This document shows positions 1-7,936 of a DNA stretch of 7,936 nt, piece by piece (the first letter of the stretch is position 1; each line of letters opens with the position of its first letter). The notes beneath the pieces were generated by a model that saw only the letters and a program-made list of their open reading frames with translations, was not told the DNA's origin and searched no databases. Position numbers and translations under genes: made by a program. This DNA comes from a virus (lineage: Duplodnaviria > Heunggongvirae > Uroviricota > Caudoviricetes): the IMG/VR virus record IMGVR_UViG_2734482571_000001, one strand, 5' to 3'.

Positions 1-35
1 GAACAGGAGGGACAGCTGATAGAAACAGAAGCCAC
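1..35 (-). CDS. insA: IS1 InsA, 5' partial (first 11 codons; continues beyond the window)
   Basis: GTG start at 35..33 on the minus strand; translation (M)ASVSISCPSC matches the InsA N-terminus from memory. Too short to appear in the ORF track. Confidence 0.75.
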   Translation of the reverse strand, partial: MASVSISCPSC

Positions 36-90
36 TGGAGCACCTCAAAAACACCATCATACACTAAATCAGTAAGTTGGCAGCATCACC
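1..90 (-). mobile_element. IS1 end, partial element running off the left edge (terminal inverted repeat about 68..90)
   Basis: Reverse complement of 1..90 reads GGTGATGCTGCCAACTTACTGATTTAGTGTATGATGG...GTGGCTTCTGTTTCTATCAGCTGTCCCTCCTGTTC, which matches the IS1 terminus and insA start as I recall them. The element boundary is at base 90, 15 bp beyond the stop (106..108) of the adjacent head gene. Confidence 0.85.
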
Positions 91-1839: not shown

Positions 1840-2622
1840 TTATGCTGCCCTTTTCATTGCGAATGGAACGCGAACAAACACGATCTCTTTATAGCAGCGG
1901 CAGTTTGGCAGCTCGCCCGCGTGGCCGGTCATGCCGTCCAAAGTTGGAGGTGAATCCCAGCGGACGAATTTACCTTTCATGTGATCGTGGGAATCTCGGA
2001 CATCGCCATCATCGGCTGTACGCCAAATATAACCATCCGAGCCAATAGCTATCGCTCGGGCCATATCCAGCGCGCCCGTTGCTCTTCCCAGTTCCGTTCG
2101 GGCAATCAGATCGGCCCTAGACTTAGCAACATCGCCGGTAGATGCAATCTCTTTAGCAAACTGCTCCGCCCGACCACCGGTGACAACAGCCTCTATCGCT
2201 TTGTTCTGGATGTCGTACACCCTGTCTGCGGCCTCGAGAGGCAGAGATTTGATGTACTTGACCTGTTCGGCGATGATGGATTGCATCACCTGGCCCACAG
2301 GAGCGCTTTCCACAAGATTGCGGAGCTCGCGACTGATGTTCTTGCTGTGTTGCCGCCAAACTTTCTCGTTCTGCCGGGTTAGGTCCGCAGTAAAGTTTTC
2401 CGCGACCTTTGTCGCCCAGGGGGTGATGATTTCACTGTAACGCTCCAGCGCCGCAATAATTTCCGTGATACTGTCATTTGAACCATCGTAGCGACCATTT
2501 ACGATGTCTCCGACCGCCCTCGCTATCCTGCGTAGGCTGGTTCGATACCGGATTTCCGCCTGACGGCTCCTGCGGTTCGTCATCAGGTTCGCCGATGCCG
2601 GGCGGCGCTTCATCTTCGGCAT
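1840..2622 (-). CDS. Head morphogenesis protein, Mu F-like / SPP1 gp7 family (260 aa)
   Basis: C-terminal region RTADDGDVRDSHDHMKGKF...GELPNCRC has the hallmark R-x-SH...NCRC signature of MuF-type minor head proteins, and the gene lies directly after the portal as in SPP1-like modules. ATG at 2622 has a GAGGA Shine-Dalgarno-like sequence about 11 nt upstream. Overlaps the portal 3' end by 149 nt in another frame, so the true start is uncertain. Confidence 0.85.
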   Translation of the reverse strand: MPKMKRRPASANLMTNRRSRQAEIRYRTSLRRIARAVGDIVNGRYDGSNDSITEIIAALERYSEIITPWATKVAENFTADLTRQNEKVWRQHSKNISRELRNLVESAPVGQVMQSIIAEQVKYIKSLPLEAADRVYDIQNKAIEAVVTGGRAEQFAKEIASTGDVAKSRADLIARTELGRATGALDMARAIAIGSDGYIWRTADDGDVRDSHDHMKGKFVRWDSPPTLDGMTGHAGELPNCRCYKEIVFVRVPFAMKRAA

Positions 2623-3556
2623 TCTCGATGTCCTCGTCGGTAATGGATGCCCCGATGCCGGTTACGTCAGAATTTTCTCGCAAATCAGTCATAGCGGCTT
2701 TCAGTGTCATCAGACCATCACCCAGCGCCGTACTGATTGCGTTGGTGGTGTTTAACGCCACCGTTGAGCGATCGACATCAGACATTTGCCAGAGCGGGTT
2801 AAACTCAAACGTGAAATCGTCCGGCAGCGGCTTGCCAAGTTCCGAACGATGCATGATGTCCAGTATCCGCCGCACCGGAAGACGTAAACGCCTCTCCTGC
2901 AACGAACTGATGCGATCGTAATAGTTGGCAAGGTCTGCATCACCGGTAGAAAATCCTTTCGGGGACTGTCCGAACAACCGCACCAGTGGGATACCAACAG
3001 CGCCACTAATCTGTTCTACAAACTGCGAAAGGATGTCATCCAGACCACTGAAGCTGTACTGATGGGTTTCAAACTTATCCCGCGAGTCCATGAGCGTCAT
3101 GCCTTCATTACTCTGGAACTGTCGAATCAGGTCGATATTCTTCAGCAACGCTTCATACGCAGGACCACCAAGTGCGATAAGCTCGCGTAGCTTCTCCACG
3201 CTGTAGGTACGCAAATGCGCCTTGTAGACCAGCTGCGCCGCGCCGACAGTAGCGCTGTCGAACGCGGTAAGACGATCCCAGATACGCTCTACAACCGACA
3301 TTCCCCATTCGTTCTCGGTCATCTTCTGCTGAAATGGCAACGTGACGCCATCAAAGCGAATCAGGCGACTGTGATGAATGCGCCAGGCAGGAATTCCCGT
3401 TGCTGTGGTCACCACATCGTAAAACTCAGGTTTACCCAGGTCCGGCCCCATATCTTTAATGCGGCGGGTCAGTGCCGGGTCGACCATCCAGCGGTCGAGC
3501 GGGAGAATCCCCTTAAACTTGCCCTTACCGATGGTTTCGGGTCGCAGCGGGGTCAT
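2474..3556 (-). CDS. Portal protein, SPP1 gp6-like; longest uninterrupted ORF (C-terminal 360 codons of a 489-codon frame)
   Basis: Lies between large terminase and the MuF-like gene, with an acidic disordered C-terminal tail (EDEAPPGIGEPDDEPQEP) typical of portals. The ATG at 3556 has a GAGGGG Shine-Dalgarno-like sequence 9 nt upstream. The same frame continues upstream to 3940 but contains two TAG codons (see next feature). Confidence 0.75.
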   Translation of the reverse strand: MTPLRPETIGKGKFKGILPLDRWMVDPALTRRIKDMGPDLGKPEFYDVVTTATGIPAWRIHHSRLIRFDGVTLPFQQKMTENEWGMSVVERIWDRLTAFDSATVGAAQLVYKAHLRTYSVEKLRELIALGGPAYEALLKNIDLIRQFQSNEGMTLMDSRDKFETHQYSFSGLDDILSQFVEQISGAVGIPLVRLFGQSPKGFSTGDADLANYYDRISSLQERRLRLPVRRILDIMHRSELGKPLPDDFTFEFNPLWQMSDVDRSTVALNTTNAISTALGDGLMTLKAAMTDLRENSDVTGIGASITDEDIENAEDEAPPGIGEPDDEPQEPSGGNPVSNQPTQDSEGGRRHRKWSLRWFK

Positions 3557-3940
3557 TGGTGCCTACCCCTCAATCATGATGAAACCCACCGCGCCGCCGT
3601 AGAGGCGCGACCATTTCAGCACGTCATTCAGCGCATCCCAGATTTGCAACTCATCCAGTTGTGATTCGAGAATGCCACGATCTTTTGCATCAATTTCCGA
3701 AGTGATGCGAATGCCTTTGCGGGTCATATCATCCGGGATAGCATCGACTGCTTCGCCGATGATCTAGGATGAACGATAGGACCATTCCACCAGCATGCGG
3801 TTACGACTGGTGAAATTAGCCCGGTAGGTGGATGCTGAGTGCTGGTTAGGTGTCTGCATCCCTACGCGGGCAATAAAATTCTCATAACCATCAGCTGTGG
3901 CCTGCACAGTTCGCCGCAGGGCTTGTTTGTTTCGTGCCAT
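3557..3940 (-). pseudogene. Portal gene 5' region interrupted by two in-frame TAG (amber) codons
   Basis: The minus-strand frame starts at ATG 3940..3938, overlapping the large-terminase stop (TGATG). It translates as MARNKQALRRTVQATADGYENFIARVGMQTPNQHSASTYRANFTSRNRMLVEWSYRSS-TAG-IIGEAVDAIPDDMTRKGIRITSEIDAKDRGILESQLDELQIWDALNDVLKWSRLYGGAVGFIMIEG-TAG-AP-MTPL... The TAG codons are at 3766..3764 and 3565..3563, both in frame with the downstream 360-codon ORF. Confidence 0.7.
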
Positions 3941-5343
3941 CAGGCCTGTCTCCCCAGCTGTTCCCAGATATCCAGCGATGTATCGATTGGCGCGAAGGCC
4001 ATAATGAATGCATCAGCAACGTTTGGTGACGGTATCTCGCGTTTTGCGAGGTCTTTTTTACTTTCGACCATCACACGTCCGTTACGGTCGAAATCACGAT
4101 GAGGTGTTGTCAGTTCCAGTTTCAGCTTTTCAAGCAACGGACAACGAGAATCTATGCTGATCAGCTCATCCACAGGATACTGTTCTCCGTTGTTAATGGC
4201 GTTAAACGTATTTCTGAAACGGTCAGCCACCAGCCACCATGCCTGAGCCTTAAGATTTGCGAAAAAGTCTTTGTTGGGGATGCCGTTGTACTCGTCATCT
4301 GGCTCATGCACACCAGCACCGGCGTTAAACCTCTGGTAATTCACACGTCGCGCGTATGCGTTCTCGCTCTTCCGGTCAGCGTTAATTTCAGAGAATTTAG
4401 CACCGGCAGACGCACCAACACCGATAGAGTCGTAAACAATATCTGCTTCACGCTCCAGCGCCGCCTGATAAGTACGCTGGCAGCTCTTCAGTAATTCATC
4501 TTCTTTGGCCTTCCATTCGTCGGCCCAGAAAACAACGGATCCGTGACGGTAAACGTTAGCGCACTTATCTGTACCACTGTCAGCCACGTCAAAGCCAATA
4601 CGCTTTCTTCCACTGGGTTCGAAATTTAACGTTTTGTGCGCATCCACTGCGGCTTCTATCCAAGACAGTTTGATGATTGCCGCATCATCATCAGACTCCG
4701 GAACGCCCTCATACACATGTTTAAAACCATCCGGATCACGGCGTCGCGCCGCGTCGATAACCTTAAGCATGGTGTCAGACAGAAACGGATTTTCGTCATA
4801 GTTAATTTTGCGGATGAGAGTGCCTTCGGGCGGATCAACAACGAAGTTGCGCCAGACGAAATCAGTAACAAGTCCGGGGTTGAATATGAACCAGCATTCC
4901 GAACCCTCTTTACGGATCGTTGGCTCCAGAATTTTCCACTGGTATTCCGTCAGTGCGTGGGCTTCTTCCAGCCACAACACATCGATCCCCTCCAGTGACT
5001 TAATTTCTTCGATGTTGCGCCATAATCCATAAAAAACAAATTCCGAGCCAGTAACCCGGTTAATGATTTTGTTGTTCAGAATACGGAAACGGTGCCGCAG
5101 ACCAAACCTGTCTATCTGAATTTTGAGCAGGGTATACACCGACTCTTCGATTTTATTCTGGATCTGACGGGCACAACAAAAACGCAGGGTGTATTTATTC
5201 GACAGAAATATGGCAATGCCAGCGGCATCCCATGATTTTGACGATGACCGACCACCATAAAGCACTTTGTTACGTGCCCGCATAGTCCAGAAACTACGTA
5301 AAGCCGGATTCAGCGTCGGTTTGGATGTCAGAGTAGAAGTCAT
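3940..5343 (-). CDS. Terminase large subunit, PBSX / Terminase_3-type
   Basis: Walker A-like motif KVLYGGRSSSKSWD near the N-terminus and conserved ATPase/nuclease-type body; TGA stop at 3942..3940. The ORF is open up to 5451, but the first 36 codons look non-protein-like; I chose the ATG at 5343 (MTSTLTSKPTLNPAL..., GGAG upstream). In-frame starts at 5361, 5382 or 5451 cannot be excluded. Confidence 0.85.
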   Translation of the reverse strand: MTSTLTSKPTLNPALRSFWTMRARNKVLYGGRSSSKSWDAAGIAIFLSNKYTLRFCCARQIQNKIEESVYTLLKIQIDRFGLRHRFRILNNKIINRVTGSEFVFYGLWRNIEEIKSLEGIDVLWLEEAHALTEYQWKILEPTIRKEGSECWFIFNPGLVTDFVWRNFVVDPPEGTLIRKINYDENPFLSDTMLKVIDAARRRDPDGFKHVYEGVPESDDDAAIIKLSWIEAAVDAHKTLNFEPSGRKRIGFDVADSGTDKCANVYRHGSVVFWADEWKAKEDELLKSCQRTYQAALEREADIVYDSIGVGASAGAKFSEINADRKSENAYARRVNYQRFNAGAGVHEPDDEYNGIPNKDFFANLKAQAWWLVADRFRNTFNAINNGEQYPVDELISIDSRCPLLEKLKLELTTPHRDFDRNGRVMVESKKDLAKREIPSPNVADAFIMAFAPIDTSLDIWEQLGRQA

Positions 5344-6058
5344 TGAGGTCACGCTCTCCATTGCCATCATCAATACCTGCATCACGGCGAAGACGATCAG
5401 CCTCCAGAGACACCTTATCAGTGGCGGCCTTGCGGTAGGCTGTATCAGCAAATATTTTTCCTACCGTCGCAAGCGTGCCAACGATGGACTCAATACGAAC
5501 TGTATTGCGCATCATTGCTTTCTCGGCGGCGCTGATATTTTCAATCAGCATCTTCCTTTCCTGGTCCCCATTAGCATCTTCCAGCGACACCAACCACCGA
5601 CCAATATTCTCTGCAGCGACAAGGTTGTTAGCACGAAGGCGAAATAATTCGTCCTCGAGCGTCAACGCTTTAGCGTCCTCTATCACCTCATCTTTGAGCA
5701 GAAGGCGACGGGCATAACCACCGTGTTTTAATGCCTGCTGGTTACCGGGTTGGAATGGGTTAGTCGGGGGATCGGTACGCATTCCGCGTATCGGTTTCGT
5801 ATCCGGTGTAGATTCTGTTTTTAGTTGCGTACTTTTTTGTGTAAGGCCAGTAATGGCAGGCTTTCTGCTGGTACGCACTTTCCTTTTTTGCGTACCATTT
5901 TTGCAAACCTGCGTACCGCCACTGCGTGCCCAACCAAGCTTTTTGGCCCTCTTCCTGATAGCCCCTTCTGTAACGCCGTATTTCTCGCCTATATCACGGA
6001 GGCTAAGGACTCCGGCCCGGTATGCCGATTCGATGGCCTCCCAGTCCGGTTTTGCCAT
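5294..6058 (-). CDS. Terminase small subunit with N-terminal helix-turn-helix (254 aa)
   Basis: N-terminal HTH-like segment (YRAGVLSLRDIGEKYGVTEGAIRKRAKKLGW) and the PGNQQALKHGGYARR motif typical of phage small terminases. ATG at 6058 with AGGAAG 9 nt upstream; TAG stop at 5296..5294. Lies immediately upstream of the large terminase on the same strand. Confidence 0.8.
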   Translation of the reverse strand: MAKPDWEAIESAYRAGVLSLRDIGEKYGVTEGAIRKRAKKLGWARSGGTQVCKNGTQKRKVRTSRKPAITGLTQKSTQLKTESTPDTKPIRGMRTDPPTNPFQPGNQQALKHGGYARRLLLKDEVIEDAKALTLEDELFRLRANNLVAAENIGRWLVSLEDANGDQERKMLIENISAAEKAMMRNTVRIESIVGTLATVGKIFADTAYRKAATDKVSLEADRLRRDAGIDDGNGERDLNDFYSDIQTDAESGFT

Positions 6059-6255
6059 GATTATGCTTCCTGTGATTTACTGTTATCGCTGCCTGTCACA
6101 ATAGGTTGCTTTAATTCTTCCTCATCACTCACTCCTGCGACGCTCCGTGGCAGGGCCCCCCACAGGAGTACCTTGTAAATGTAAGGTGTTTAAGCCTAAA
6201 TTAAGTCGTATCACGGTTAAATAGCAAAGAAAAATTCACAGAAGGAAAGACATTG

Positions 6256-6765
6256 ATGGAGTGGATAAATGCTTTGATGAACTATTTTGTACTTCATCCA
6301 TATCGCCTATGGGGGCTTCTTTTTATAATAGCGTTCACAAAATCCACTTTACTCATTTCGGCGATATTGCCACCAGCATCAATTATGATGGCCACTGTAA
6401 TTACAGTCAGCAAGACGACTCTTTCACCATGGGAAGCTGGAATCACGGTCATGAGTGGCGCATGGTGCGGTACTATCGTTAATTACCATCTTGGTATAAT
6501 AATTGGGCATATCCCTCAACTTGCATGTATAATATCAAGCCGTTCCAATACAATAGAACGGGTTCGCCTTCAGTTGCAAAATAACTCTGTGTCAATACTT
6601 TTCACTTCGCGCTTTATCGCCGTGCTGCGTTATATTGCTCCTTTGGTGGCAGGAATGTTGCAACTTCATCCAGTGAAAGTGTATACAGTGAGTCTGATTT
6701 CAGCTGCTAGCTGGTCAGCACTTTATGTTGGTAGTTTTAGCTTCGTGTTGCCTTTTTTTAGCTAA
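6256..6765 (+). CDS. DedA/YqaA-like (VTT / SNARE-associated domain) inner-membrane protein, moron gene (169 aa)
   Basis: Only convincing plus-strand gene in the window. ATG at 6256 is preceded by GAAGGAAAG (AGGA 9 nt upstream); the ORF track starts it at a TTG at 6253. Multiple hydrophobic segments. The motif SRFIAVLRYIAPLVAGM matches the DedA-family signature RF-I-P-x-LR-x-x-x-P-x-x-AG, and GAWCGTIVNYHLGIIIG resembles the glycine-rich DedA motif. Visibly AT-rich compared with the flanking phage genes. Confidence 0.75.
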   Translation: MEWINALMNYFVLHPYRLWGLLFIIAFTKSTLLISAILPPASIMMATVITVSKTTLSPWEAGITVMSGAWCGTIVNYHLGIIIGHIPQLACIISSRSNTIERVRLQLQNNSVSILFTSRFIAVLRYIAPLVAGMLQLHPVKVYTVSLISAASWSALYVGSFSFVLPFFS

Positions 6766-6853
6766 ACTGCCCATAAAAAGCTCTTGCGAATCCAGCTTCC
6801 CCCATTCCTCTGACAACAGAATCTGATTTGAAGGATAATGAGTAAAATTACCG

Positions 6854-7324
6854 CTACCCCCCAAGGCATTGGATCCTGATGTACTCCTGAAGCATTCTCA
6901 ATGCTGTCTGGTCGCTGATGATTCCGTCCCGGATACCGAGAACGTTTCGTCCAGCAACTGGAGAGAGTTCGACGGTGGCATCATTGCCCATGCCGGAGGC
7001 GCTGGAGGTTTCGGCTGAGGATGGCACAGGGCATTTTCCTTTGACGAGCACCCGACCACCATTATCAAGCTTGCGCCGAAGAGCATCATTTTCAGCTTTC
7101 GCATCAGCTAACTCCTTCGTGTATTTAGCATCGAGTGCATCAGCATCACGCTGGCGCTGCTGCATGTCAGTAATGGTTGCGTTCGCCAGCTTCAGTTCTC
7201 TTGCGTTTTTGTCGCGCTGCTCTTTGTAGGTAATGGCGTTATCACGGTAATGATTAACAGCCCATGACAGGCAGACGATGATGCAGATAACCAGAGCGGA
7301 GATAATCGCGGTGACTCTGCTCAT
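6854..7324 (-). CDS. Rz: Rz i-spanin (inner-membrane spanin subunit)
   Basis: Translation from ATG 7324..7322 ([34 protein letters not shown]...[13 protein letters not shown]) is near-identical over about 85 residues to lambda Rz as I recall it, with a C-terminal Cys. TAG stop at 6856..6854. The start overlaps the endolysin stop (ATGA). The ORF track extends to a GTG at 7336. Confidence 0.9.
6898..7104 (-). CDS. Rz1: Rz1 o-spanin (outer-membrane lipoprotein), embedded in Rz in the +1 frame
   Basis: 68-codon ORF entirely inside Rz in another frame; lipobox-like MVVGC followed by the proline-rich [11 protein letters not shown], the hallmark of Rz1. ATG at 7104..7102. Confidence 0.8.
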
Positions 7325-7431: not shown

Positions 7432-7615
7432 TGGCAGAGAATGTCTGGAATAGCGAGGTTATCTTCGCGGAGATTAAGGCAATGGGTTATACGGGCGGAC
7501 GTTCCATGCTGCGTTACTACATCCAGCCCAAACGTAAAATGCGTCCGTCAAAAAGAACAGTTCGCTTCGAAACTCAGCCTGGATACCAGCTCCAGCATGA
7601 CTGGGGCGAAGTTGA
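7425..7615 (+). mobile_element. istA: IS21-family transposase istA internal fragment (5'-truncated; 3' side runs into the N gap)
   Basis: Plus-strand translation [63 protein letters not shown] carries the IstA motifs GY-x-GG and RFET-x-PG-x-Q-x-Q-x-DWG (compare IS100 IstA). The N-terminal HTH part of IstA and any IS terminal repeat are absent, so the copy is truncated at its left side. Confidence 0.7.
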
Positions 7616-7762
7616 NNNNNNNNNNNNNNNNNNNNNNNNNNNNNNNNNNNNNNNNNNNNNNNNNNNNNNNNNNNNNNNNNNNNNNNNNNNNNNNNNNNNN
7701 NNNNNNNNNNNNNNNNNNNNNNNNNNNNNNNNNNNNNNNNNNNNNNNNNNNNNNNNNNNNNN
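7616..7762. other. Assembly gap or masked region (147 N)
   Basis: Uninterrupted run of n characters; the true length and content are unknown. It probably hides the rest of the IS21-family element and/or the middle of the endolysin gene. Confidence 0.95.
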
Positions 7763-7828: not shown

Positions 7829-7882
7829 TATTCACCTCTCGCAGCCTTACTAGACTGGCCCCCTGAATCTCCAGACAACCAG

Positions 7883-7902
7883 TATCACTTAAATAAGTGA
7901 TA
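7883..7902. promoter_or_regulatory. Operator-like palindrome TATCACTTA-AA-TAAGTGATA upstream of the endolysin start
   Basis: Perfect 9-bp inverted repeat with a 2-bp centre, 55 to 74 nt upstream of the endolysin ATG (7828). The TATCAC half-site resembles lambdoid repressor operator half-sites. No binding protein can be assigned from sequence alone. Confidence 0.3.
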
Positions 7903-7936
7903 GTCTTAATACTAGTTTTTAGACTAGTCATTGGAG

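What the first reader, a model, noticed from the sequence alone, without database searches (positions are those of the whole stretch)
6180..6780. AT-rich opposite-strand moron encoding a DedA/YqaA-like membrane protein between the lysis cassette and the terminase genes
The only plus-strand gene (6256..6765) sits in a visibly AT-rich island between Rz and terS, the slot where lambdoid phages carry morons such as bor. It has its own Shine-Dalgarno sequence and is convergent with Rz. The product has the DedA-family RF-x-x-x-LR-x-x-x-P-x-x-AG motif but is short (169 aa) and appears to lack the conserved acidic residue of the first DedA motif. DedA proteins affect membrane homeostasis and envelope stress, and I do not know of a characterised prophage-borne member, so a role in host envelope fitness or superinfection exclusion is speculative.
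Basis: partly seen in the sequence, partly recalled or inferred. Interest (0 to 1): 0.6.

Follow-up and report, generated by a model that had tools for sequence, protein, structure and literature searches.

The report
Prophage-carried atypical short DedA membrane protein
A decaying Shigella/E. coli prophage carries an intact extra gene for a small inner-membrane protein of the DedA family, from a rare branch in which the family's key acidic residue is always a lysine; this probably alters the host's envelope, but the gene is already annotated and its function is untested.

Summary
A 749-bp AT-rich insert (6061-6809; 42.6% GC against 52.1%) lies between Rz/Rz1 and terS. It carries one opposite-strand ORF (6256-6765, 169 aa) with a Shine-Dalgarno sequence. 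Prophages with 98.8%-identical terS lack the insert, and only 6 of 5426 complete E. coli genomes have it.

The product is a real VTT/DedA-domain protein (Pfam 52.4 bits, cutoff 33.9). It is not YqaA-like; YabI is its closest K-12 paralogue (25% identity). It belongs to a small, sharply bounded Enterobacterales subfamily of about 148-180 aa. That subfamily lacks the C-terminal helix, keeps both signature arginines, and always has Lys where YqjA has the essential Glu39.

Most members are chromosomal. In Enterobacter and Arsenophonus they sit beside an M-box-riboswitch mgtE gene, and in Enterobacter an exact PhoP box lies upstream. A second, unrelated Citrobacter prophage carries the gene in the same slot and orientation. 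dN/dS is 0.15-0.25. The ORF is intact in all 18 near-identical loci, although the window's prophage is defective.

Best reading: a moron that provides an envelope or lipid-homeostasis function. The molecular activity is inferred only. RefSeq already annotates the gene as "DedA family protein".

The parts
6061..6809 (.). AT-rich insert (moron) between terS and the Rz/Rz1 spanin genes
   Evidence: terS homology to 112 E. coli prophages and to Klebsiella phages stops at about window 6060. Rz-side homology to thousands of lambdoid prophages stops at about 6810. GC is 42.6% against 52.1%. The insert is present in only 6 of 5426 complete E. coli genomes.
6186..6255 (+). Conserved upstream region carried with the gene: direct-repeat element TGTTTA-AGCCT-AAATTA (6187-6203), -10-like TTAAAT (6217-6222), Shine-Dalgarno AAGGA (6242-6246)
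   Evidence: It aligns with the upstream regions of the C. youngae prophage copy and of chromosomal copies in Citrobacter, Enterobacter and Lelliottia. The consensus is gTTGAgg-N4-aTTTAAg-N11-13-TTAAAT. The sigma-70 consensus scan found nothing here, so promoter function is inferred.
6256..6765 (+). Short DedA/VTT-family gene, 169 aa (RefSeq start TTG 6253, WP_011069285.1 'DedA family protein')
   Evidence: Pfam PF09335 52.4 bits. RefSeq annotation. AlphaFold2 model with pLDDT 79 is all-helical, with two helix-turn-helix hairpins. K29, LPPAS 38-42, R119 and R125.
6854..7324 (-). Rz i-spanin gene, convergent with the DedA gene (right flank, not part of the insert)
   Evidence: PF03245 103.7 bits; phrog_13 E 1.5e-74.
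6898..7104 (-). Rz1 o-spanin gene embedded in Rz
   Evidence: PF06085 75 bits; phrog_3198.
5294..6058 (-). Terminase small subunit gene (left flank, not part of the insert)
   Evidence: phrog_370 E 7.5e-95. It is followed by terL at 3940-5451, PF04466 131 bits.

Best explanation
The feature is a moron: a 749-bp block of foreign, AT-rich DNA inserted between the lysis cassette and the terminase genes of a lambdoid prophage of Shigella flexneri and a few E. coli strains.

What it carries. It has one gene on the strand opposite the phage late operon, together with about 70 bp of the gene's own conserved upstream region. In a lysogen it should therefore be transcribed on its own, independently of phage late transcription (inferred).

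The protein. It is an inner-membrane protein with the DedA/VTT fold. It belongs to a small Enterobacterales subfamily that has three distinguishing features:
- It lacks the C-terminal transmembrane helix.
- It keeps the two signature arginines of the second re-entrant hairpin.
- It invariably has Lys where canonical DedA proteins have the membrane-embedded Glu (YqjA E39, UptA E32).

Likely native role. Most members are chromosomal. In Enterobacter and Arsenophonus they sit beside an M-box-controlled mgtE gene, and in Enterobacter an exact PhoP box lies in the shared regulatory region. The native role is therefore probably part of the low-Mg2+ / envelope-remodelling response.

Most likely mechanism (inferred, about 25-30%). 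The protein binds and equilibrates an anionic lipid across the inner membrane. Candidates are undecaprenyl phosphate or an anionic phospholipid. It would use its all-cationic site (K29, R119, R125) and would not use the proton coupling attributed to the Glu in YqjA-type proteins. As prophage cargo it would give the lysogen extra capacity for envelope homeostasis. Examples are carrier-lipid recycling during LPS modification, or tolerance of low Mg2+ or cationic peptides.

What is shown and what is inferred. The moron anatomy, the family and subfamily assignment, the purifying selection and the synteny are shown. Expression, substrate and phenotype are inferred.

How to read the confidence value. 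The figure of 0.55 is for the explanation as a whole. The anatomy and the family assignment alone I put at about 0.9. The specific lipid-translocation mechanism I put at about 0.25-0.3.
For: Insert boundaries and presence/absence polymorphism.

Composition.

Family: Pfam VTT_dom 52.4 bits. The AlphaFold2 model has pLDDT 79 and helix-turn-helix hairpins at 15-52 and 111-134. The best BFVD fold matches are giant-virus VTT proteins, probability 0.9, TM 0.50-0.64.

Subfamily:
- Profile score falls from 149 to 83 bits at its edge.
- Only 12 of 1.84 billion cluster representatives reach E <= 1e-30, against 4794 DedA hits at E <= 1e-3.
- K at the E39 column in every member; E in 129 of the other close DedA representatives.
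- R119 and R125 are kept.

Functional importance of these residues in YqjA, YghB and UptA: PMC10846249, PMC11474028, bioRxiv 10.64898/2026.09.20.752871.

Selection: dN/dS is 0.15-0.25 in all pairs, including prophage against prophage at 0.23. The ORF is intact in 18 of 18 near-identical loci, with mostly synonymous differences, while the portal gene of the same prophage has two nonsense mutations. The exact protein occurs on at least 1000 contigs.

Independent phage carriage: a C. youngae prophage with a different terminase and endolysin type has a 78%-identical copy in the same slot and orientation.

Native context:
- M-box riboswitch (107-115 bits) plus mgtE lies next to the gene in Enterobacter, Lelliottia and Arsenophonus.
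- All 22 exact PhoP boxes in 891 kb of loci lie 99-122 nt upstream of the gene; 0.4 are expected by chance.
- The gene is retained in 0.85-0.93 Mb Arsenophonus endosymbiont genomes.

Published DedA links to Mg2+/Ca2+ homeostasis and to C55-P flipping and polymyxin resistance: PMC10846249, PMC10470534, PMC12893004.
Against: - No expression or phenotype data exist.
- The consensus scan finds no sigma-70 promoter upstream and no terminator downstream.
- The window copy has no exact PhoP box. Its PhoP-like repeat has 3 mismatches in 12, which is not significant on its own.
- The Enterobacter PhoP box lies only about 56-72 nt from the 5' end of the M-box on the other strand, so it may serve mgtE rather than the DedA gene.
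- mgtE synteny is absent from the Citrobacter/Kosakonia clade, which is closest to the phage copies.
- In UptA the equivalent Glu hydrogen-bonds the second Arg and contributes to C55-P binding (PMC11474028). A Lys there could abolish transport instead of uncoupling it.
- The host prophage is defective and flanked by IS elements, so persistence by hitch-hiking is not excluded.
Confidence: 0.55

Rival explanations
1. It acts on divalent-cation (Mg2+) homeostasis directly, as a transporter or as an accessory of Mg2+ uptake, not as a lipid flippase. The prophage copy would help the lysogen in low-Mg2+ niches such as the host-cell interior.
For: Chromosomal orthologues lie next to M-box-mgtE in 29 Enterobacter, Lelliottia and Huaxiibacter loci and 6 Arsenophonus loci, in two different gene orders. 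An exact PhoP box is present in the shared region. DedA mutants of Klebsiella and Xanthomonas have Mg2+/Ca2+-related phenotypes (PMC10846249, PMC10470534).
Against: The clade closest to the phage copy shows no mgtE linkage. The published cation phenotypes may be secondary to envelope defects. The conserved cationic site (K29, R119, R125) is an unlikely cation-binding site. The window copy has no M-box and no exact PhoP box.
Confidence: 0.2
2. It is an inert passenger: a gene picked up by a phage that persists only because the defective prophage is fixed in Shigella flexneri, with no function in this host.
For: The prophage is decaying. The portal gene has two nonsense codons, IS1 and IS2 ends bound the window, and the endolysin region is disrupted. 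No consensus promoter or terminator was found. The canonical essential Glu is absent.
Against: The ORF is intact in 18 of 18 loci and differences are mostly synonymous. dN/dS is 0.15-0.25. All subfamily-invariant residues are retained. The Lys is invariant across the subfamily, so it is not a degenerative change. About 70 bp of upstream sequence is conserved with distant chromosomal copies. The gene was captured or kept in the same slot by two unrelated phages.
Confidence: 0.15
3. It serves the phage. As an inner-membrane protein encoded beside the lysis cassette, it would block superinfection or modulate holin/spanin-mediated lysis.
For: It lies directly next to the lysis genes in two unrelated prophages. 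Many exclusion proteins are small inner-membrane moron products (established knowledge).
Against: Most family members are chromosomal genes in non-phage contexts, including reduced endosymbiont genomes. PADLOC gives no hit. The gene is on the strand opposite the late operon, so it is not co-transcribed with the lysis genes. No tailed-phage structural homologue was found in BFVD.
Confidence: 0.1
4. It is an ordinary, redundant proton-motive-force-coupled DedA paralogue, equivalent to YqjA, YghB or DedA.
For: The Pfam VTT domain is present and the arginine pair is conserved.
Against: E39 is Lys and D51 is Ala. The C-terminal helix is missing. Identity to the K-12 paralogues is only 22-25%. NCBIfam equivalog scores are far below cutoff: DedA 31 against 236 bits, UptA 19.9 against 250 bits.
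Confidence: 0.08

Closest known systems
E. coli DedA-family proteins YabI, DedA, YqjA and YghB (Pfam PF09335, VTT domain)
   Same: Same domain, 52.4 bits. The predicted core is the same: a transmembrane helix, a re-entrant hairpin with a Pro-rich turn, a long transmembrane helix, amphipathic helices, and a second hairpin carrying the RF...R...P..AG motif. The serine equivalent to YqjA S52 is kept as S42.
   Different: Identity is only 22-25%. The last transmembrane helix, about 45-85 residues, is absent. YqjA E39 is Lys and D51 is Ala. YabI, the closest paralogue, also lacks D51 (it has Thr) but keeps the Glu.
UptA / PA4029-type undecaprenyl-phosphate flippases (DedA family)
   Same: Same fold family. 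The arginines equivalent to UptA R112 and R118, which contribute to C55-P binding, are conserved, as is the Trp equivalent to W146 (W153).
   Different: NCBIfam UptA equivalog scores are 19.9 and 16.3 bits against cutoffs of 250 and 300. UptA E32, which pairs with R118, is Lys here. No functional data exist.
Lambda bor and other lambdoid morons in the Rz-to-terminase slot
   Same: A single accessory gene lies on the opposite strand just downstream of Rz. Its composition is atypical, and it is absent from otherwise near-identical phages. The position and orientation of bor are from established knowledge.
   Different: The product is unrelated: bor encodes an outer-membrane lipoprotein. No terminator was detected here.
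E. coli YqaA (short DedA-superfamily protein, 142 aa)
   Same: Both are short members of the superfamily.
   Different: BLASTP finds no similarity.

Membership tests
DedA / VTT-domain family (PF09335) | Match to the Pfam VTT_dom profile above the gathering score | tested here: met
   52.4 bits against a cutoff of 33.9; E 9.2e-14; residues 41-161 cover profile positions 3-121 of 123.
DedA / VTT-domain family (PF09335) | Two conserved arginines in the second re-entrant hairpin (YqjA R130/R136; UptA R112/R118) | tested here: met
   R119 and R125 align with them. R125 is invariant in all 55 sequences of A3 and R119 is conserved in at least 90%; both are invariant within A2.
DedA / VTT-domain family (PF09335) | Membrane-embedded Glu of the first hairpin (YqjA E39; UptA E32) | tested here: not met
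   K29 is invariant in the subfamily. 129 of the other close representatives have Glu. The protein is therefore a divergent member and not a canonical one.
DedA / VTT-domain family (PF09335) | Second acidic residue (YqjA D51) | tested here: not met
   A41 within LPPAS. This residue is not universal in the family: YabI-like relatives have Thr, and close relatives mostly have A, S, T or V.
DedA / VTT-domain family (PF09335) | Core fold with two opposed re-entrant helical hairpins between transmembrane helices | tested here: inconclusive
   The AlphaFold2 model (pLDDT 79, pTM 0.75) has helix-turn-helix units at 15-52 and 111-134. The top BFVD matches are VTT proteins at probability 0.9, but with E 0.3-1.2. 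No solved DedA structure exists in the PDB library. The afdb50 library was unavailable. Hairpin 1 has low confidence, with pLDDT of about 50.
Orthologue of E. coli DedA or of UptA (NCBIfam equivalogs) | Score above the equivalog cutoff | tested here: not met
   PRK10847 31 bits against 236. UptA models 19.9 against 250 and 16.3 against 300.
YqaA-like short DedA | Detectable sequence similarity to YqaA | tested here: not met
   No BLASTP alignment at E <= 10. The best paralogue is YabI, E 8.5e-12.
Phage moron | Inserted between genes that are adjacent in related phages | tested here: met
   Prophages with 98.8%-identical terS, and Klebsiella phages with 88-89%-identical terS, have the lysis genes next to terS, separated at most by one small hypothetical ORF, and no DedA. 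The insert is found in 6 of 5426 genomes.
Phage moron | Base composition distinct from the surrounding phage genome | tested here: met
   42.6% against 52.1% GC; GC3 38% against 50-61%.
Phage moron | Own promoter | tested here: inconclusive
   About 70 bp of upstream sequence is conserved with chromosomal orthologues. There is no sigma-70 consensus site. An activator-dependent promoter is inferred.
Phage moron | Own terminator | tested here: not met
   No intrinsic terminator follows the stop codon. The fold of 6750-6870 is no better than shuffled sequence, z 0.05.
Phage moron | Expressed from the repressed prophage | not testable with these tools
   This needs transcript data from lysogens.
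Known anti-phage defence or exclusion proteins (PADLOC) | Match to any PADLOC model | tested here: not met
   0 families at E <= 1.

The most novel reading that the evidence does not exclude
The Lys-for-Glu short DedA proteins are a functionally distinct class of DedA proteins. They would be a proton-independent scramblase for anionic lipids or undecaprenyl phosphate, or a partner that heterodimerises with host DedA proteins through the hairpin interface and modulates them. They would belong to the PhoPQ / low-Mg2+ regulon. Lambdoid phages would have captured one as a lysogenic-conversion gene that raises tolerance of cationic peptides or low Mg2+ in Shigella.
Probability: 0.15. Interest if true: 0.7.

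Novelty: new variant of a known kind. Interest (0 to 1): 0.45.

Why it matters
DedA proteins are ubiquitous and collectively essential in E. coli. They are required for polymyxin resistance in several pathogens. Their mechanism is unresolved and no experimental structure was found.

This subfamily is conserved and under purifying selection. It replaces the Glu that is essential in YqjA/YghB with Lys, and it lacks the C-terminal helix implicated in oligomer contacts. That makes it a natural experiment on what the Glu does, whether proton coupling or stabilisation of the arginine site.

The subfamily is retained in genomes under 1 Mb, which argues that it is active. Its linkage to an M-box-mgtE gene and a PhoP box gives a concrete condition, low Mg2+, under which to look for a phenotype.

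For phage biology, it would add an inner-membrane lipid-homeostasis gene to the known lysogenic-conversion cargo in the classic Rz-terminase moron slot. It is fixed in a major human pathogen.

If the gene proves silent or inert in Shigella, the finding reduces to an already annotated accessory gene in a dead prophage.

Tried and rejected
- DNA search of the insert against 50,697 phage records: no match. tblastn gave only hits of 30% identity or less, mostly in records that look like host DNA.
- First AlphaFold2 run with the 19-sequence alignment: pLDDT 58, unusable. It was replaced by a run with 55 sequences.
- Foldseek against the PDB: nothing below E 3. The afdb50 library was not available.
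- Rfam on the window: no family.
- Promoter and terminator consensus scans: nothing upstream or downstream of the ORF on the plus strand. RNA folds of the 3' flank and of 6061-6200 (minus strand) were no better than shuffled sequence.
- PADLOC: no hit.
- Literature searches for 'DedA family' with prophage, for DedA with MgtE and M-box, and for the RefSeq accession: nothing relevant.
- Exact PhoP box in the window: none. A PmrA-box reading of TTTAAG-N5-ATTAAG was considered from memory only. It was dropped because the other family members have TTGAG-type repeats with different spacing.
- IMG/VR locus L114 (73% identical): rejected as a third phage carrier. The gene lies just outside the end of a Mu-like prophage (MuA, MuB, repressor), so it is probably host flank.
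- The PLSDB 'plasmid' hit in C. freundii: rejected as plasmid carriage. The record carries icd, purB, mnmA and rluE, so it is chromosomal DNA.

Full report

Yes. The window has one credible plus-strand gene. It runs from ATG 6256 to TAA 6765 and encodes 169 aa. AAGGA lies 9 nt upstream of the ATG. RefSeq uses the in-frame TTG at 6253 and names the product 'DedA family protein', WP_011069285.1.

The gene is convergent with Rz (6854-7324; PF03245, 103.7 bits), which has Rz1 embedded in it (6898-7104; PF06085, 75 bits). On its other side are terS (5294-6058; phrog_370, E 7.5e-95) and terL (PF04466).

GC falls to 0.40-0.43 across 6100-6800, against 0.50-0.55 in the flanks. The insert is 42.6% GC and the rest of the window 52.1%. 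ORF GC3 is 38%.

The Pfam VTT domain match is 52.4 bits against a cutoff of 33.9.

**2. It is an insertion.**

- terS homology to 112 E. coli prophages and to Klebsiella phages ends at about window 6060, at the terS start codon.
- Rz-side homology to thousands of lambdoid prophages ends at about 6810.
- Prophages with 98.8%-identical terS/terL have the lysis genes next to terS, with at most one small hypothetical ORF between them and no DedA.
- Only 6 of 5426 complete E. coli genomes carry the insert.
- The exact protein is found on at least 1000 contigs, mainly S. flexneri.
- No terminator follows the gene.

Apart from the missing terminator, the anatomy is that of a moron in the slot where lambda carries bor. 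The position of bor is from established knowledge.

**3. What the protein is.**

The best K-12 paralogues are YabI (24.6% identity, E 8.5e-12), DedA and YqjA. There is no similarity to YqaA.

Alignment with the paralogues shows four things:
- YqjA E39 aligns with K29.
- LPGD51S aligns with LPPAS.
- R130 and R136 align with R119 and R125.
- The last transmembrane helix is absent.

E39, D51, R130 and R136 are essential in YqjA/YghB (PMC10846249; bioRxiv 10.64898/2026.09.20.752871). In UptA the equivalent Glu (E32) hydrogen-bonds R118 and contributes to C55-P binding (PMC11474028).

The Lys is not a lesion of this copy. It is invariant in all 38 subfamily representatives, while the nearest outgroups all have Glu.

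The subfamily is sharply bounded. Profile score drops from 149 to 83 bits at its edge. Only 12 of 1.84 billion cluster representatives score E <= 1e-30, against 4794 DedA hits at E <= 1e-3. Among the top 150 representatives, every Lys at this column belongs to the subfamily.

A 55-sequence AlphaFold2 model (pLDDT 79) is all-helical, with two helix-turn-helix hairpins. The PDB library has no DedA-fold match. The best BFVD matches are giant-virus VTT proteins, and there is no tailed-phage match.

**4. Where the family lives.**

The genome scan found 73 loci, all in Enterobacterales:
- Shigella and E. coli: 100% identical, in a prophage.
- C. youngae: 78%, in a prophage.
- Citrobacter and Kosakonia: 57-74%.
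- About 30 Enterobacter species, plus Lelliottia and Huaxiibacter: 42-53%.
- Morganella and Proteus myxofaciens, and Hafnia: 34-39%.
- Arsenophonus: 37-43%, including complete endosymbiont genomes of 0.85-0.93 Mb.

Kosakonia and C. amalonaticus copies sit in ordinary chromosomal contexts.

The C. youngae prophage is a different phage, with a GpA-type terminase and a GH19 endolysin. It still carries the gene in the same place and orientation, between the lysis genes and the terminase region on the opposite strand.

In C. freundii and C. meridianamericanus the gene follows a dinI-like gene. In C. freundii it lies beside icd, together with an Ail/Lom gene and an ars operon. This looks like a prophage or island remnant.

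**5. Native neighbourhood and regulation.**

An M-box riboswitch (RF00380, 107-115 bits) and an mgtE gene lie next to the short DedA gene. The arrangement is divergent in Enterobacter and Lelliottia and co-directional in Arsenophonus. tblastn finds this linkage in 29 Enterobacter-group loci and 6 Arsenophonus loci.

All 22 exact matches to the PhoP box (KGTTTA-N5-KGTTTA; consensus from PMC5913352) in 891 kb of loci lie 99-122 nt upstream of the DedA start codon in these Enterobacter loci. About 0.4 are expected by chance. The box could equally serve mgtE on the other strand.

A second, proximal element is conserved in all copies, including the window at 6187-6222. Its consensus is gTTGAgg-N4-aTTTAAg-N11-13-TTAAAT. 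The window has no exact PhoP box. Its repeat, TGTTTA-N5-AAATTA, is only PhoP-like, so PhoP control of the prophage copy is a lead and not a result.

**6. Selection.**

dN/dS is 0.15-0.25 for all pairs, and 0.23 for the window against the C. youngae prophage copy.

In 18 near-identical Shigella and E. coli loci the ORF is always intact and most differences are synonymous.

The prophage itself is defective. The portal gene of the window has two nonsense codons, W59* and Q126*. IS1 and IS2 ends bound the window, and the endolysin region is disrupted.

**7. Mechanism.**

Shown:
- A moron-type insert.
- A DedA-fold inner-membrane protein from a Lys-variant subfamily.
- Purifying selection.
- Linkage to Mg2+-responsive elements in some lineages.

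Inferred:
- Autonomous expression in lysogens.
- Action on an anionic lipid such as C55-P, or on envelope or cation homeostasis, without Glu-mediated proton coupling.

The published DedA functions fit this inference: C55-P flipping, PE distribution, polymyxin resistance, and Mg2+/Ca2+-suppressible phenotypes (PMC12893004, PMC10193950, PMC10846249, PMC10470534).

Rivals considered were a direct cation role, an inert passenger, a phage-exclusion or lysis role (PADLOC negative), and a canonical redundant DedA (NCBIfam equivalog scores far below cutoff).

**8. Novelty and verdict.**

The gene and its family assignment are already in RefSeq. Three things appear undescribed in the searchable literature:
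- the Lys-variant short subfamily;
- its M-box-mgtE and PhoP-box neighbourhood;
- its repeated carriage in the Rz-terminase moron slot.

I rate it a new variant of a known kind and of moderate interest. The functional suggestions remain speculative.

Noticed in passing
window 2474-3940 (-): The portal gene (DUF1073) has two in-frame nonsense codons, W59* and Q126*, relative to the 99.9%-identical E. coli prophage copy. The window's prophage is therefore defective.
   Followed up: yes
window 1-90 and 7851-7936: The window ends match an IS1 end and an IS2 end, as seen in the E. coli FDAARGOS_943 locus. The prophage fragment is bounded by insertion sequences.
   Followed up: partly
window 7433-7762: About 320 nt of the endolysin gene present in related loci (L101, L001) is replaced by a 184-nt fragment plus 146 N. 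The fragment resembles an IS21-family IstA transposase by eye; this was not tested with a profile. Whether this is a real IS scar, an assembly gap or masking is unclear.
   Followed up: partly
L011:7574-7743, L034:5673-5842, L041:5672-5841 (all minus strand); L013:8810-8979 (+): M-box (ykoK) Mg2+ riboswitches lie upstream of mgtE in Enterobacter, Lelliottia and Arsenophonus, next to the short DedA gene. In Enterobacter an exact PhoP box lies in the shared 160-bp divergent region.
   Followed up: partly
L115 (NZ_CP056259.1, annotated as an 82-kb C. freundii plasmid): The record carries icd, rluE, mnmA, hflD and purB, so it looks like chromosomal DNA. The DedA homologue sits beside icd with dinI, an ars operon and an Ail/Lom gene, which is probably a prophage or island remnant at the icd attachment site.
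   Followed up: no
L028:8593-8689 (-) and L032:8026-8122 (-): Rfam hits to the Hfq-binding sRNAs IsrI (in the C. youngae prophage, about 2 kb from the DedA gene) and RseX (in C. amalonaticus, beside a porin gene).
   Followed up: no
L114:145-4101: A Mu-like transposable prophage end (MuB, MuA, Mu-type repressor) lies about 0.9 kb from a 73%-identical DedA homologue. The homologue is probably host flank included in the IMG/VR contig.
   Followed up: partly
L031:6656-7639 (+): In Kosakonia arachidis the gene immediately downstream of the short DedA gene encodes an L,D-transpeptidase (YkuD), which is an envelope-related neighbour. This is a single observation.
   Followed up: no
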